DNA of 64,000 nucleotides, taken from NCBI RefSeq assembly GCF_001677475.2, contig NZ_CP015229.1. One strand, given 5' to 3'. Below, one piece after another: positions 1,133 to 23,786 of this stretch. The translations under genes were made by a program, and so were the position numbers. The first letter of the stretch is position 1. The number at the start of each line of letters is the position of its first letter. The notes beneath the pieces are model-generated. The model was not told the origin of the DNA. It saw only the letters and a program-made list of their open reading frames with translations, and made no database searches. The DNA comes from Escherichia coli. GTDB lineage: Bacteria; Pseudomonadota; Gammaproteobacteria; Enterobacterales; Enterobacteriaceae.

Positions 1133-2030
1133 ACCGTGATTCATTCTCGCCAACAACCGCGCATTCCTCCAACGCCATGTGCAAAAATGCCTTCGCGGCG
1201 GCTGTCTGCCAGCTATTTTTCCGCCGCAACAAAACCGCCGTTCTCTCCAGTAGTGGAGGGGCAAGAGAAATAGCTTTAAGCCCGTCATGTTGTGTGGCAA
1301 TAGCTGCTGGTAATAATGTGGAAAGGGAAGTGCGGCGAATCAACTCCAGAACCGCGCTAATTGAGTTCGCCTCAATGACCACCTGTGGATGTAGCCCCGC
1401 TTTCTCGCAGTAGTGGTCAATTTGCTCTCTGGTGGCAAATTCCGCGCTGAGCAGGACCAGTTTTTCATCATGCAAGCGACTCAACGCCACCTGTTCATGG
1501 GCGGCCAGCGGATGATGTTGCGCCACGACTAACGCTAAACTTTCTGTTAGTAAAGGAATTGCCTCCAGCTCCGGCGAATGCACAGGCGCGAAGGCAATCC
1601 CAACGTCCAACTCGTCGCGACAAAGCAGATCTTCGATTTTCTCCTGCGACATTTCCTGTAGCTGGAGCGTGATGCCGGGGTAGCGCGCATAGAAATCTGC
1701 CATTAAAGGGCCGATAAAGTAGCTCGTAAAGGTGGGGGTGACGGCGATACGCAGCGATCCTCGCGTCAGATCGGCAACATCATGAATCGCCCGTTTACCC
1801 GCCCCCAGTTCCTGTAACGCCCGGCTGGCGTACTGTCGCCAGACTTCTCCTGCATCAGTGAGACGAATCGTTCGCCCGCTACGGTCAAACAGCGGCACGC
1901 CCAAACTTTCCTCTAACTGGCGAATCTGCTGGGAAAGCGCAGGCTGGGAGACGTGCAACGCACTGGCGGCACGGGTAAAGCTGCCATGTTCAGCCACGGC
2001 AAGAAAATAATTGATATGTCGAGAGAGCAT
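1131..2030 (-). CDS. cynR: LysR-family transcriptional activator of the cyn operon
   Basis: ORF 1131..2054 trimmed to internal Met giving 299 aa; N-terminal HTH ([23 protein letters not shown]) typical of LysR regulators; divergent from cynT. Confidence 0.92.
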
Positions 2031-19812: not shown

Positions 19813-20352
19813 ATGGCAAAACTTACCTTACAAGAGCAGTTGCTCAAAGCAGGATTAGTCACCAGCAAAAAAGCGGCGAAGGTCGAGAGAACGGCGAAAA
19901 AATCGCGCGTTCAGGCGCGTGAAGCTCGGGCAGCGGTAGAAGAAAATAAAAAGGCCCAGCTTGAGCGTGATAAACAGCTTAGCGAGCAACAAAAACAAGC
20001 GGCGTTGGCGAAAGAATATAAAGCGCAGGTGAAGCAGCTTATTGAAATGAACCGGATCACCATTGCCAATGGCGATATTGGTTTTAACTTCACTGACGGC
20101 AATCTGATTAAGAAGATTTTTGTCGATAAGCTCACACAGGCGCAGTTGATTAATGGTCGTCTGGCGATTGCCCGCTTGTTGGTCGATAACAATAGCGAAG
20201 GTGAATACGCCATTATTCCCGCCAGCGTTGCCGATAAAATTGCTCAGCGTGATGCCAGCAGTATAGTGTTGCACAGCGCGCTCAGCGTCGAAGAGCAGGA
20301 TGAAGACGACCCGTATGCCGACTTCAAAGTGCCTGATGATTTGATGTGGTAA
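19813..20352 (+). CDS. yaiL: DUF2058-type protein, nucleoprotein/polynucleotide-associated enzyme
   Basis: Start chosen at MAKLTLQEQLLKAG giving 179 aa; K/E/Q-rich coiled-coil N-terminal half. Confidence 0.85.
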   Translation: MAKLTLQEQLLKAGLVTSKKAAKVERTAKKSRVQAREARAAVEENKKAQLERDKQLSEQQKQAALAKEYKAQVKQLIEMNRITIANGDIGFNFTDGNLIKKIFVDKLTQAQLINGRLAIARLLVDNNSEGEYAIIPASVADKIAQRDASSIVLHSALSVEEQDEDDPYADFKVPDDLMW

Positions 20353-20372
20353 ACATAGATAAGTCGTGCGCA

Positions 20373-20472
20373 GATGCCTGATGCGACGCTATGCGCGTCT
20401 TATCATGCCTACGGCCTGCGGGCGAAATGTAGGCCGGAGAAGGCGTTTACGCCGCATCCGGCAGTCGTGCAC
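20373..20472. repeat. REP/BIME elements between yaiL and frmB
   Basis: gcctgatgcgacgc, gtaggccggag, gccgcatccggc motifs. Confidence 0.8.
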
Positions 20473-20474
20473 TA

Positions 20475-21311
20475 TTACCAACGCATATTCAGTTTATTGG
20501 CGTGGTAGGCAATATGCTCGCCAATAAGACTGGAGACAAAATAATAGCTGTGATCATAACCCTCGTGATAACGGATTAACGTCTTGATATTCATCTCCTG
20601 GCAGATCTTTTCAAGATTTTGAGTCCGCAGCTGTTCCGCGTAAAAATCATCATTCAATCCCTGATCAACCATGATTTCCGCAACGCGTTGACCTTGTGAA
20701 ATAAGGCTCATCGGATCGTAATCCAACCAGGCATCTTTATTTTCACCAAGATATGCGGCAAAGGCTTGCTGTCCCCACGGTACTTGCGATGGGGAGACAA
20801 TGGGCGAAAACGCCGAGACGCTGACATATTCATCTGGGTTACGTAACGCCAGCACCAGCGCGCCCAGTCCGCCCATAGAATGACCTGAGATAGACTTTCT
20901 GGCCGTTGCCGGAAAATGATGCATCACTAAATCCGGCAGCTCGTTGCGGATATAGTCATACATTTTGTAATTTTCATTCCACGGCGCTTGCGTTGCGTTC
21001 AGGTAAAACCCGGCACCTTGCCCGAGATCGTAACGGTCAGCATCTGCGACATGACTGCCTCGCGGACTGGTGTCCGGCGCAACAACAATAATGTTGTGCT
21101 CAGCCGCGTAACGCTGCATCCCCGATTTAGTAATGAAATTCTGCTCGTTGCAGGTCAGGCCTGAAAGCCAGTACAGCACCGGCAATTTTTCATTCGCGGC
21201 TTTTGGTGGGAGATAGACGCCGACATTCATTTCACATTTCAGTGATTGGGAATAATGCCGATACACATTTTGCCAGCCGCCAAAGCTGGCATGTTTTTCA
21301 ATGAGTTCCAT
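20475..21311 (-). CDS. frmB: S-formylglutathione hydrolase (esterase D family)
   Basis: 278-aa ORF with GHSMGG serine-hydrolase motif. Confidence 0.94.
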   Translation of the reverse strand: MELIEKHASFGGWQNVYRHYSQSLKCEMNVGVYLPPKAANEKLPVLYWLSGLTCNEQNFITKSGMQRYAAEHNIIVVAPDTSPRGSHVADADRYDLGQGAGFYLNATQAPWNENYKMYDYIRNELPDLVMHHFPATARKSISGHSMGGLGALVLALRNPDEYVSVSAFSPIVSPSQVPWGQQAFAAYLGENKDAWLDYDPMSLISQGQRVAEIMVDQGLNDDFYAEQLRTQNLEKICQEMNIKTLIRYHEGYDHSYYFVSSLIGEHIAYHANKLNMRW

Positions 21312-21404
21312 CAGTCATTATCTCACGGTTAATCCCCCGGGCGGCTGCCCGGGGAGAGTATTAAGAACCCCGCCTGAACTGGACGGGGTAAAACCTGCGG
21401 GAAA

Positions 21405-22544
<1,140 letters not shown>

Positions 22545-22548
22545 TCAG

Positions 22549-22824
22549 CTATTTAAGATAGGCTCGAACCAGTTCAATAGTGTCGTCAACGGATTGGCTG
22601 ACTTCGCGGCTGTAGCAGTCATTTCGGTCAAACGTTTCCCGGATATGGCTTTCAAGCACTTCTGCCATCAGCCCGTTAGCCGCGCCCCGAACGGCAGCGA
22701 TCTGTTGGAGTATGGCACGGCATTCGGCATCACCCTCCAGCGACCGTTCCAGAGCATCAATCTGCCCCCGAATACGACGAACTCGAGTAAGGACCTTTTT
22801 CTTCTCTTCCGGAGTACTGGGCAT
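22549..22824 (-). CDS. frmR: formaldehyde-responsive repressor (CsoR/RcnR family)
   Basis: Start chosen at [21 protein letters not shown] giving 91 aa. Confidence 0.93.
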
Positions 22825-22850
22825 TTCGCACCTCATCATCTGTATGCAAT

Positions 22851-22899
22851 ATACTATAGGGGGGTATGCTATATGTCAATCCATACCCCTGTATAGTAT
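22851..22899. promoter_or_regulatory. long inverted repeat just upstream of frmR (candidate frmRAB promoter/FrmR operator)
   Basis: atactataggggggtatg ... catacccctgtatagtat, near-perfect 18-bp arms around a 13-bp spacer, 27 bp upstream of the frmR start. Confidence 0.7.
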
Positions 22900-23012
22900 A
22901 TAACACTGGAGAATAAAATTTATCCGGTGAATGTGGTCGGAAAACAAAGAGGAAAGGGGGTGGGGGCTAATCGGCAGGGAAGGCCGCCCCGGATAGCGGG
23001 CGGCAGAAGGAA

Positions 23013-23786
23013 TCAGAATTTCCAGGTCAGATGGGCTGCAAGTTGCAGACCGTTATAATCATCGGTTGGGGTGTCGTACCACACTTTACCTGCCGTCAGC
23101 CCGAGATTAAGTTGCTCAGTCAGCGGTTGAATACGTTGCAGACTGACGCTCTTCATGCTGCCGTAGCGTGTTTCTGGCGTCCAGTCATAGGTATAAGCGC
23201 CTGTTCCGCGGCTTAGCCATAGTTGCGTATAACCAATGCCGCGCGGGTCATTCAGACGCACGGAAATCATATTGCTATAACTACCACCTGCATCGCTGGA
23301 GTCATAATGGGTATAGCGGTAGCTGGTGATCACCGGGCCAGTATAGAGTGATACGCCGCCTTGCCAGGCATCGACTTCGACATCATCGTAATATTTAGTG
23401 TAGCGATAACCGGTCGTGAAAAGCGTTTTTGGTAACAGGGCCAGGTTAATATCCTGACGAAAATCCTGGCGGGCAAAGACCGGCGTATTATCCGCAAAGG
23501 CAATACCCGTTCGGGTTGTCAGCCAGTTATTCCATTTATACCAGACCGCACCCTGACCGCGAGTGGCATTGAAATGTTCAGTTTCATAATCACGACGCCC
23601 CTGGGAAAGATTAAAAAGCAGCGTTGCGTTATCAACTTTCGCCACCAGTTCAGCATACGCTAAATTACGGTTGCCATGATCGCCAGAATAATCGGTAAAA
23701 TCGTAGCCCGCGGTAATGGAAGTTAACCCGGCATAAGCGGGCAATGCGCTAAAAATGGCCGCCGCTAATAACGTCCGTTTTATCAT
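23013..23786 (-). CDS. yaiO: outer-membrane beta-barrel protein
   Basis: 257-aa ORF with signal peptide (MIKRTLLAAAIFSALPAYA) and C-terminal aromatic residue (..HLTWKF). Confidence 0.9.
   Translation of the reverse strand: MIKRTLLAAAIFSALPAYAGLTSITAGYDFTDYSGDHGNRNLAYAELVAKVDNATLLFNLSQGRRDYETEHFNATRGQGAVWYKWNNWLTTRTGIAFADNTPVFARQDFRQDINLALLPKTLFTTGYRYTKYYDDVEVDAWQGGVSLYTGPVITSYRYTHYDSSDAGGSYSNMISVRLNDPRGIGYTQLWLSRGTGAYTYDWTPETRYGSMKSVSLQRIQPLTEQLNLGLTAGKVWYDTPTDDYNGLQLAAHLTWKF

What the first reader, a model, noticed from the sequence alone, without database searches (positions are those of the whole stretch)
21335..21354. Perfect 8-bp GC hairpin in the frmA-frmB intercistronic gap
ccccgggc-ggct-gcccgggg sits in the 93-bp gap between the frmA stop and the frmB start on the operon strand and has no U-tract, so it is unlikely to be a terminator. 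It may be an mRNA stability or processing element setting the relative expression of frmA and frmB.
Basis: seen in the sequence. Interest (0 to 1): 0.2.

Follow-up and report, generated by a model that had tools for sequence, protein, structure and literature searches.

The report
Conserved RNA hairpin upstream of frmB
The GC-rich hairpin between the two formaldehyde-detoxification genes frmA and frmB is real and is kept by evolution as a stem-loop in the messenger RNA just ahead of frmB. It is most likely an ordinary stability or processing element that adjusts the relative output of the two genes, not a terminator.

Summary
CCCCGGGC-AGCC-GCCCGGGG (operon strand, window 21335..21354) lies in the 93-nt frmA-frmB gap, has no U-tract, and is the second most stable compact hairpin in the 64-kb window.

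Two corrections are needed. First, the perfect all-GC stem is a rare allele. The exact 40-mer occurs in 126 of 5417 E. coli records, and K-12 and most other sampled alleles carry a G.U wobble (GUCCGGGG).

The main new result is that the stem is conserved. A homologous stem-loop sits at the same 23-nt distance from the frmB AUG in the mobile frmR-frmA-VOC-frmB cluster found on 426 plasmid records.
- Two base pairs show compensatory changes (G-C / G.U / A-U and G-C / U-A).
- The loops are unconserved.
- 98% of pair cells are paired on the operon strand, against 88% on the antisense strand.

It is not a REP element, not an Rfam family, not an FrmR operator and not a canonical terminator. The best reading is an intercistronic decay-barrier or processing-boundary hairpin of the malE-malF or papBA kind, which uncouples the fates of frmRA and frmB mRNA. 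The existence and conservation of the structure are shown. The mechanism is inferred, and no transcript data exist for the induced operon. This is a new member of a known kind, of low to moderate interest.

The parts
21335..21354 (-). Hairpin B core: CCCCGGGC-AGCC-GCCCGGGG, 8 G-C pairs with a 4-nt loop. This is the reported feature.
   Evidence: In K-12 and most other sampled E. coli alleles the right arm is GUCCGGGG, giving a G.U pair.
21334..21355 (-). Hairpin B as conserved: a 9-bp helix that includes a closing U.G (or U-A) pair.
   Evidence: Model R1 and alignment A6. 98.0% of cells are paired, two pairs carry compensatory changes, and slid registers reach at most 67% paired. RNAalifold predicts the same helix on its own.
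21312..21333 (-). The frmB leader between the hairpin and the AUG: AUUAACCGUGAGAUAAUGACUG. It holds the probable weak Shine-Dalgarno GAGA at 21321..21324. Its length and most of its sequence are shared with the plasmid-borne cluster.
   Evidence: Alignments A3 and A6. The Shine-Dalgarno assignment is inferred from position.
21355..21366 (-). A/U-rich, single-stranded 12-nt spacer (UCUUAAUACUCU) between the two hairpins. It is a candidate endonuclease entry site.
   Evidence: Unpaired in both the MFE and the centroid fold. There is no exact RN|WUU motif (my reading). The role is inferred.
21367..21389 (-). Hairpin A: ACCCCGUC-CAGUUCA-GGCGGGGU, 15 nt after the frmA stop. It is followed by a U-rich tail (UUCUUAAU if the closing A-U pair is left open). 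Possibly a weak terminator or a 3' protective hairpin for frmRA.
   Evidence: Within Escherichia it varies as U.G/U-A and C-G/U.G, with 99% of cells paired. The terminator scan does not call it. It is absent from the plasmid cluster.
21405..22514 (-). frmA, S-(hydroxymethyl)glutathione dehydrogenase, 369 aa.
   Evidence: ORF list and RefSeq annotation of matching E. coli loci.
20475..21311 (-). frmB/fghA, S-formylglutathione hydrolase, 278 aa in this window.
   Evidence: ORF list, translation and RefSeq annotation.
22851..22899 (-). The frmRAB promoter with two FrmR operator sites (ATAC-N9-GUAU). This is the only promoter-like site of the operon, and there is none in the frmA-frmB gap.
   Evidence: The operator definition comes from Denby et al. 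2016, PMC5146963.

Best explanation
Hairpin B is a conserved stem-loop in the polycistronic frmRAB mRNA, 23 nt upstream of the frmB start codon. It does not stop RNA polymerase.

It most likely acts after transcription as a decay barrier or processing boundary. Once an endonuclease (RNase E) cuts the transcript in frmB or in the unstructured leader, the very stable stem, together with hairpin A in Escherichia, would stop 3'-to-5' exonucleases. The frmR-frmA part would then outlive the frmB part, so FrmA is made in excess of FrmB (the malE-malF or puf type). A cut in the A/U-rich spacer just upstream would instead leave the stem near the 5' end of the frmB segment (the papBA type). Either way the stem uncouples the fates of the two halves of the operon.

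Shown: the structure, its strand, its conservation and covariation, and the lack of terminator, promoter and operator features.

Inferred: the nucleases, the direction of protection, and any effect on the FrmA:FrmB ratio.
For: 1. Exceptional stability, on a strand that is transcribed as part of one operon.
- The hairpin folds at -20.2 kcal/mol and ranks second in 64 kb.
- It is present in both the MFE and the centroid structure of the gap.
- Pfrm is the only promoter-like site, and there is none in the gap.
- The literature treats frmRAB as one formaldehyde-induced transcript.

2. Selection on pairing, over 22 distinct sequences from Escherichia and the mobile cluster.
- 98.0% of cells are paired, against 92.7 +/- 1.2 in shuffles (0 of 500 reach the observed value).
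- The covariation score is 0.285, against at most 0.062 for slid registers.
- One pair is UA:10, GC:8, GU:1, UG:1. Another is AU:11, GU:8, GC:3.
- RNAalifold finds the same helix.

3. Strand asymmetry. There are 22 wobble cells on the operon strand, so pairing is 98.0% there against 88.3% on the antisense strand. For the common E. coli allele the energies are -17.5 against -13.3 kcal/mol, and for the O157 allele -14.5 against -6.8.

4. Loops are not conserved (AGCC, AACC, UUCG, UCACU, UCCCU and others). The stem itself is therefore what is kept, as expected of a generic structural barrier and not of a ligand- or protein-specific motif.

5. E. albertii has a weakened hairpin B (-12.6 kcal/mol) but carries an extra strong hairpin (-19.6) and a REP-like insert in the same gap.

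6. In 38 of 50 other frmA-frmB gaps of 40-300 nt, unrelated sequences form a hairpin stronger than 95% of shuffles. Most of these end 12-32 nt before the frmB AUG.

7. The known framework exists. [quoted passage not shown]
Against: - There are no transcript-level data for this operon in the induced state. The held Term-seq tables show no 3' end at either hairpin, and the differential-decay study gives no result for frmRAB.
- There is no exact RNase E RN|WUU motif in the spacer upstream of the hairpin. GG|AUU occurs just 3' of it in E. coli but not in most plasmid alleles, and by my estimate it would arise by chance about one time in four in a leader of this length (my reading).
- The compensatory changes trace to few independent events, essentially two deep lineages plus some within-lineage transitions.
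- One E. coli strain (MS10860) and E. albertii carry mismatches in the stem.
- The fixed 23-nt distance to the AUG would also fit a role in translation.
Confidence: 0.45

Rival explanations
1. Transcriptional attenuation. Hairpin A with its U-rich tail, possibly helped by hairpin B as a pause or second hairpin, terminates a fraction of polymerases after frmA. This would give a frmRA transcript plus a smaller amount of full-length frmRAB.
For: - Hairpin A is an 8-bp G/C-rich stem followed by UUCUUAAU, 5 U in 8 if the closing A-U pair is left open.
- In Proteus and Photorhabdus the analogous gap hairpins are followed by U-rich tails such as UCUUUGUU and UAUGUUUU. A terminator-like role at this junction therefore recurs.
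Against: - The consensus scan calls neither hairpin terminator-like.
- Hairpin B has no U-tract in any allele.
- The plasmid cluster keeps hairpin B but has no hairpin A.
- No 3' end within these sequences appears in the held Term-seq tables, although the operon is repressed there.
Confidence: 0.17
2. Translation control of frmB. The stem is part of the frmB translation-initiation region. It could insulate the weak ribosome-binding site from pairing with upstream sequence, or provide a standby platform. A weak second helix that pairs C(A/G)UGAG with CUGAUG would cover the start codon.
For: - The distance from the stem to the AUG is fixed at 23 nt, and the leader is shared between E. coli and the plasmid cluster although the upstream gene differs.
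- Similarity between the two lineages starts at or a few nucleotides upstream of the hairpin.
- RNAalifold adds a 5-bp helix that includes the AUG, with A-U/G.U variation at one pair.
- Many unrelated lineages place a hairpin 12-32 nt before the frmB AUG.
Against: - Neither the Shine-Dalgarno region nor the AUG lies inside hairpin B.
- The second helix is weak and is broken in K-12 (C-U) and in two ACG alleles.
- The leader differs at 5 of 23 positions between the window and plasmid allele L096 (my count), roughly in line with the 78-80% FrmB amino-acid identity between the lineages. The shared spacing may therefore be plain common descent.
Confidence: 0.17
3. No function. The hairpin is a G/C-rich palindrome that arose by chance, or as a scar of rearrangement at a junction that is prone to insertions, and it persists by descent.
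For: - One all-G/C 8-bp hairpin per 64 kb occurs in about 10% of simulations.
- The gap is a site of rearrangement: an IS421 insertion in one strain, a REP-like insert in E. albertii, and a VOC gene in the plasmid cluster.
- Within E. coli alone there is no compensatory change.
Against: - Pairing is kept at 98% across lineages that differ at 9 of 24 positions in the hairpin region (my count).
- Two pairs changed on both sides and there is a wobble intermediate series.
- Substitutions are tolerated in the loops but not in the stems.
- The stem is more stable on the operon strand than on the antisense strand.
Confidence: 0.13
4. A DNA-level palindrome. It would be a binding site for FrmR or another dimeric protein, or a cruciform or recombination site.
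For: - It is a perfect inverted repeat in this window, flanked by TTAAT...ATTAA.
- CsoR/RcnR-family operators are G/C tracts flanked by A/T-rich inverted repeats.
Against: - The FrmR operator motif ATAC-N9-GTAT occurs exactly twice, at the promoter. It is absent from the gap even with one mismatch.
- K-12 and most other sampled E. coli alleles break the DNA palindrome with changes that are wobble pairs only in the operon-strand RNA.
- The sequence is single-copy per genome.
Confidence: 0.03

Closest known systems
3' protective intercistronic stem-loops: the malE-malF REP hairpins (Newbury et al. 1987), the puf operon stem-loop (Chen et al. 1988), and the conserved protective structures of Dar & Sorek 2018 (PMC5927463)
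   Same: A very stable stem-loop on the mRNA strand at the boundary between two cistrons of one operon. It has no terminator U-tract and is conserved across relatives. Its predicted effect is that the upstream genes outlast the downstream one.
   Different: - It is not a REP sequence and is single-copy per genome.
- It lies in the gap, whereas most cases in Dar & Sorek lie inside the downstream coding sequence.
- Differential decay of frmRAB has not been measured.
The papB-papA 5' stem-loop after RNase E cleavage (Bricker & Belasco 1999, as summarised in PMC5927463)
   Same: A hairpin just upstream of the downstream cistron, preceded by an unstructured A/U-rich segment. It travels with the downstream gene, which in the plasmid cluster follows a different upstream neighbour.
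   Different: No RNase E site has been mapped, and the spacer has no exact RN|WUU motif. It is not known whether frmB is the more stable segment.
Intrinsic (Rho-independent) terminators and attenuators
   Same: A G/C-rich stem of 8-9 bp with a 4-nt loop. The neighbouring hairpin A has a partial U-rich tail.
   Different: Hairpin B lacks the U-tract in every allele, and the scan does not call it.
REP/BIME elements
   Same: G/C-rich palindromes in E. coli intergenic regions that can stabilise upstream mRNA. Real REP-like elements lie just downstream of frmB (20375..20503).
   Different: There is no sequence similarity. The Rfam naRNA4/REP model hits only the region after frmB and not the gap. 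The hairpin occurs at one place per genome.

Membership tests
Intrinsic (Rho-independent) terminator | G/C-rich stem-loop with a short loop | tested here: met
   8-9 bp stem with a 4-nt loop, -20.2 kcal/mol.
Intrinsic (Rho-independent) terminator | Run of U immediately 3' of the stem on the transcribed strand | tested here: not met
   The tail is GAUUAACCGU in E. coli and AAAUAACCAU in the plasmid alleles. The scan does not call it.
Intrinsic (Rho-independent) terminator | RNA 3' ends mapped a few nucleotides after the stem | tested here: inconclusive
   No 3' end with these sequences, and none named frmA, appears in the held supplement of Adams et al. 2021. The operon is repressed in those conditions.
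REP/BIME repeat | Matches the REP consensus and is dispersed in many copies per genome | tested here: not met
   Rfam naRNA4 (REP-derived) hits fall only at 20375..20503. The 93-nt gap and the 40-mer occur at a median of one place per genome, at most two, in 5416 genomes.
Decay-barrier / protective intercistronic stem-loop (malE-malF, puf, Dar & Sorek type) | Stable structure on the mRNA strand at a cistron boundary inside one transcription unit | tested here: met
   The operon status comes from the literature.
Decay-barrier / protective intercistronic stem-loop (malE-malF, puf, Dar & Sorek type) | Structure conserved in relatives | tested here: met
   98.0% paired over 22 distinct sequences, with compensatory changes at two pairs.
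Decay-barrier / protective intercistronic stem-loop (malE-malF, puf, Dar & Sorek type) | Different half-lives or abundances of the flanking segments that depend on the stem | not testable with these tools
   No decay or coverage data for induced frmRAB were found.
papBA-type 5' protective hairpin | RNase E cleavage in an unstructured RN|WUU site immediately upstream of the hairpin | tested here: inconclusive
   A 12-nt A/U-rich unpaired spacer is present. It has no exact RN|WUU, and no cleavage map covers it.
FrmR (CsoR/RcnR family) operator | ATAC-N9-GTAT with a G/C tract (Denby et al. 2016) | tested here: not met
   There are two exact sites at 22851..22899 only. The gap has none, even with one mismatch.
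Any Rfam 15 family | Covariance-model match | tested here: not met
   The only match overlapping the gap is anti-hemB at 21360..21402, with 14.6 bits against a gathering score of 49.5 and E = 4.9. That is a chance-level hit.

The most novel reading that the evidence does not exclude
Hairpin B and its 23-nt leader form a dedicated cis-regulatory module of frmB that moves with the gene, on the chromosome in Escherichia and on hundreds of conjugative plasmids in Klebsiella, Enterobacter and others. Its function would be specific: for example, a recognition site for an RNA-binding protein or RNase that ties FrmB synthesis to aldehyde or glutathione stress. A generic decay barrier would not count.
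Probability: 0.08. Interest if true: 0.5.

Novelty: new member of a known kind. Interest (0 to 1): 0.27.

Why it matters
FrmA and FrmB act in sequence to detoxify formaldehyde, and E. coli has a second hydrolase, YeiG. The cell may therefore need less FrmB than FrmA.

A conserved stem-loop at the junction would be a simple built-in device that sets that ratio from a single promoter. That is relevant to groups who use or delete frmRAB for formaldehyde biosensors and synthetic methylotrophy.

The same element rides with frmB on many conjugative plasmids of clinical Enterobacteriaceae, which carry a frmR-frmA-VOC-frmB cluster. In that setting it is a ready-made natural test of whether the stem works independently of the upstream gene.

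Apart from that, it is an ordinary example of a well-known class.

Tried and rejected
1. Rfam scan of 20300..23100 at E <= 10. Nothing credible falls in the gap, and REP-like hits occur only after frmB.

2. Dispersed-repeat idea. The gap and the 40-mer are single-copy per E. coli genome. The covariance model found only orthologous sites in 350 kb of held sequence.

3. FrmR binding site. I raised this because the G/C tract is flanked by TTAAT/ATTAA and preceded by ATAC. The operator motif is confined to the promoter.

4. Internal promoter for frmB. None is called in the gap.

5. Terminator call. The scan lists neither hairpin.

6. Upstream mini-ORF (AUG/GUG-AGA-UAA) in the leader. The first codon varies among AUG, GUG, CUG and ACG, so it is not a conserved ORF.

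7. Long-range pairing of the frmA 3' end with the frmB start region in the MFE fold. It lies in coding sequence that does not vary, and it is absent from the plasmid cluster, so it cannot be tested.

8. Literature searches.
- Nothing on structures in this gap turned up.
- Herring & Blattner 2004 is not held.
- The supplements of Dar & Sorek 2018 (NAR) and of the 3'-UTR Term-seq paper are not held.
- The Adams 2021 tables hold no 3' end here.

9. Covariation within E. coli alone gives no signal beyond the shuffles, only one-sided wobble changes. The signal comes from adding the plasmid lineage and other Escherichia species.

Full report
**What is in the sequence**

The window carries the E. coli frmRAB operon on the minus strand.
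- frmR lies at 22549..22824. The ORF tool extends it to 22839.
- frmA lies at 21405..22514.
- frmB (annotated fghA in RefSeq) lies at 20475..21311.
- The gap between frmA and frmB is 93 nt, 21312..21404.

The reported inverted repeat is present at exactly 21335..21354. On the operon strand it reads CCCCGGGC-AGCC-GCCCGGGG and is followed by GAUUAACCGU, which is not a U-tract.

Three measures of how unusual it is:
- It is the only perfect all-G/C 8-bp hairpin in the window.
- It is the second most stable 26-nt hairpin on either strand, at -20.2 kcal/mol against a window mean of -3.3 and sd of 2.6.
- Simulated sequences of the same first-order composition contain at least one such hairpin per 64 kb in about 10% of cases.

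Its existence alone is therefore not decisive. Its position and its conservation are.

It lies 15 nt after the frmA stop and 12 nt upstream of the reported hairpin. Both hairpins appear in the MFE and centroid folds of the gap.

**Variation within E. coli**

The locus is single-copy and present in 5416 of 5426 complete E. coli genomes. The perfect stem is a minority allele. The exact 40-mer around it occurs in 126 of 5417 records. K-12 and most other sampled strains have GUCCGGGG in the right arm, which gives a G.U pair.

Other alleles have a C-to-U change in the left arm, and each change creates a U.G pair:
- O157: CUCCGGGC.
- Two strains: CCCUGGGC.
- Escherichia sp. E1V33: CCUCGGGC.

The divergent E. 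coli SCPM-O-B-8794 has GGAC/GUCC, an A-U pair where the window has G-C. One strain, MS10860, has an A.C mismatch.

Each of these wobble pairs would be an A.C mismatch on the antisense strand or in a DNA cruciform. Within E. coli and its closest relatives alone, this is one-sided variation with no statistical signal beyond shuffling.

**Conservation beyond Escherichia**

A scan for FrmB relatives in one genome per species returned 80 loci. They fall into three groups:
- Three Escherichia loci.
- A group of seven with 78-80% FrmB identity, from Edwardsiella, Aeromonas, Enterobacter, Morganella, Serratia and Providencia. One of them is on a plasmid.
- Many more distant lineages with about 60-66% identity.

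In the 78-80% group the frmA-frmB interval is about 505 nt. It holds an extra gene for a VOC/glyoxalase-family protein.

Directly after that gene lies the stem-loop (U)UCCCCUGAC-loop-GUCAGGGGA(A), followed by the leader AAUAACCAUGAGA...GGCUG-AUG. This is homologous to the E. coli stem-loop and leader, and it sits at the same 23-nt distance from the frmB AUG. Sequence similarity between the two lineages starts at or a few nucleotides upstream of the hairpin.

This cluster is common on plasmids. It matched 426 PLSDB records, mostly conjugative plasmids of Klebsiella and Enterobacter. A metagenome pattern scan added further alleles.

I built a covariance model from eight Escherichia sequences and aligned 44 sites, 22 of them distinct, in a structure-aware way. 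On that alignment:
- 98.0% of pair cells form standard pairs, against 92.7 +/- 1.2 in shuffles. No shuffle out of 500 reached the observed value.
- Pairing falls to at most 67% when the register is slid by one to three columns.
- The covariation score is 0.285, against at most 0.062 for the slid registers.
- Two pairs changed on both sides. One is UA:10, GC:8, GU:1, UG:1, with two unpaired. The other is AU:11, GU:8, GC:3.

Three caveats apply:
- The alignment was fitted to the model's structure.
- RNAalifold nevertheless predicted the same helix on its own.
- The independent events are few: two deep lineages plus several within-lineage transitions.

Pairing is 98.0% on the operon strand (171 Watson-Crick plus 22 wobble cells of 197) and 88.3% on the antisense strand. 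The operon-strand hairpin is more stable than its antisense version in 18 of the 22 distinct alleles and within about 1 kcal/mol in the other four. Examples are -17.5 against -13.3 kcal/mol for the common E. coli allele and -14.5 against -6.8 for the O157 allele.

Loops differ freely: AGCC, AACC, UUCG, UCACU, UCCCU and UUCCG. The conserved thing is therefore a stem in the operon-strand RNA, not a sequence motif.

**What it is not**

- It is not an Rfam family.
- It is not a REP/BIME element. REP-like matches lie only downstream of frmB, and the hairpin is single-copy.
- It is not an FrmR operator. ATAC-N9-GTAT occurs exactly twice at the promoter and nowhere in the gap.
- It is not next to a promoter-like site.
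- It is not a canonical intrinsic terminator, because it has no U-tract in any allele and is not called by the scan.

Hairpin A is a borderline case. Its tail is UUCUUAAU if the closing A-U pair is left open. The scan does not call it, and it is absent from the plasmid cluster.

**Mechanism**

Published work treats frmRAB as a single FrmR-repressed, formaldehyde-induced transcript. I found no description of structures in this gap.

The available end-mapping data are uninformative:
- The held tables of Adams et al. 2021 list no 3' end named frmA and none containing either hairpin sequence. Those cultures were not induced.
- Dar & Sorek 2018 list frmRAB only among the operons they considered.

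The best-fitting known framework is the one that study reviews and extends. It has two forms:
- Stable structures at cistron boundaries block 3'-to-5' exonucleases after an endonucleolytic cut. This is the malE-malF or puf type, and it stabilises the upstream gene.
- Alternatively, the structure ends up near the 5' end of the downstream fragment after RNase E cleavage. This is the papBA type, and it stabilises the downstream gene.

I commit to the following reading. Hairpin B, with hairpin A in Escherichia, is a decay-barrier or processing-boundary element that uncouples the fate of frmRA from that of frmB. The upstream-protecting direction is somewhat more likely, for two reasons:
- Analogous hairpins in Proteus and Photorhabdus are terminator-like, which marks the end of the upstream message.
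- E. coli has a back-up hydrolase, YeiG.

The mechanism is inferred. Only the structure, its strand and its conservation are shown.

Three observations support a generic structural role:
- The loops are unconserved.
- E. albertii has a weakened hairpin B together with a new strong hairpin and a REP-like insert in the same gap.
- In 38 of 50 other frmA-frmB gaps of 40-300 nt, from many unrelated lineages, a hairpin stronger than 95% of shuffles is present. It usually ends 12-32 nt before the frmB AUG.

Rivals that remain open are partial transcription termination centred on hairpin A, and a role in frmB translation initiation. The fixed 23-nt spacing, and a weak predicted helix covering the AUG, fit the second. 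A DNA-level role and pure chance are unlikely, for the reasons given above.

**Verdict**

The element is a previously undescribed but ordinary member of a well-known class of intercistronic mRNA stem-loops. What adds some value is its conservation with compensatory changes and its spread with frmB on plasmids. Interest is low to moderate.

Noticed in passing
window 20375..20503: REP/BIME-like palindromes immediately downstream of frmB. They give sub-threshold Rfam naRNA4 (REP-derived) hits on both strands, the best at 38.9 bits against a gathering score of 59.5. In K-12, Adams et al. 2021 list a very strong minus-strand 3' end at 377325 (score 100650) whose listed upstream sequence contains REP-type palindromes and which is labelled antisense to yaiL. 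It is probably the stabilised 3' end of the operon transcript.
   Followed up: partly
L012-L018, L110-L113 (for example L110:1156-1554): A mobile variant of the operon, frmR-frmA-VOC(glyoxalase-family)-frmB, is found on 426 plasmid records. They are mostly conjugative plasmids of Klebsiella and Enterobacter, with others from Salmonella, Citrobacter, Serratia, Yersinia ruckeri and more. It also occurs in scattered chromosomes. The role of the extra VOC gene in aldehyde detoxification is not known to me.
   Followed up: partly
L008 (E. coli Br_167_kylling, NZ_CP182378.1): In strain Br_167_kylling, similarity to the frmA-frmB gap starts only at GGGTTCTTAAT, the 3' edge of hairpin A. An IS421 (IS4-family) transposase gene lies immediately upstream in place of frmA. 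The promoter-proximal genes are therefore separated from hairpin B and frmB.
   Followed up: no
L010 (E. albertii) gap 1807..2000: The gap is 194 nt instead of 93. It holds an extra strong hairpin (CCCCGCCCU-GUC-AGGGCGGGG, -19.6 kcal/mol) right after frmA and a REP-like palindrome (GCCUGAUGUGCUACACCUGUCAGGCCUAC). Hairpin B is weakened by a 2x2 internal loop.
   Followed up: partly
window 22979..23008: Another G/C-rich hairpin without a U-tract (GCCGCCCGCUAUCCGGGGCGGC on the minus strand, about -17 kcal/mol). It lies just after the 257-aa ORF at 23013..23786 (probably yaiO) and upstream of the frm promoter.
   Followed up: no
window 22822..22839: The mechanical ORF for frmR starts 5 codons too early ([14 protein letters not shown]). 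The functional start must be the ATG at 22824, so that Pro2, the formaldehyde-sensing residue in Denby et al. 2016, is the second residue. That gives the 91-aa protein.
   Followed up: partly
window 20475..20480: FrmB in this window ends ...HANKLNMRW, 278 aa. That is one residue longer than the 277-aa product implied by the 834-nt fghA CDS annotated in K-12 and other E. coli.
   Followed up: no
window 21309..21328: RNAalifold predicts a weak 5-bp helix pairing C(A/G)UGAG with CUGAUG, which would cover the frmB start codon. One pair varies A-U/G.U, but the helix is broken in K-12 and in two ACG alleles.
   Followed up: partly
window 21312..21404 compared with E. coli genomes: The whole 93-nt gap of this window is a rare allele. 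It is 100% identical in only 4 of 5417 records, and most are 90-95% identical. It shares features (GGUUUUACC, the C at the G-C pair) with Escherichia sp. E1V33 and not with typical E. coli, which may reflect recombination at this locus.
   Followed up: no
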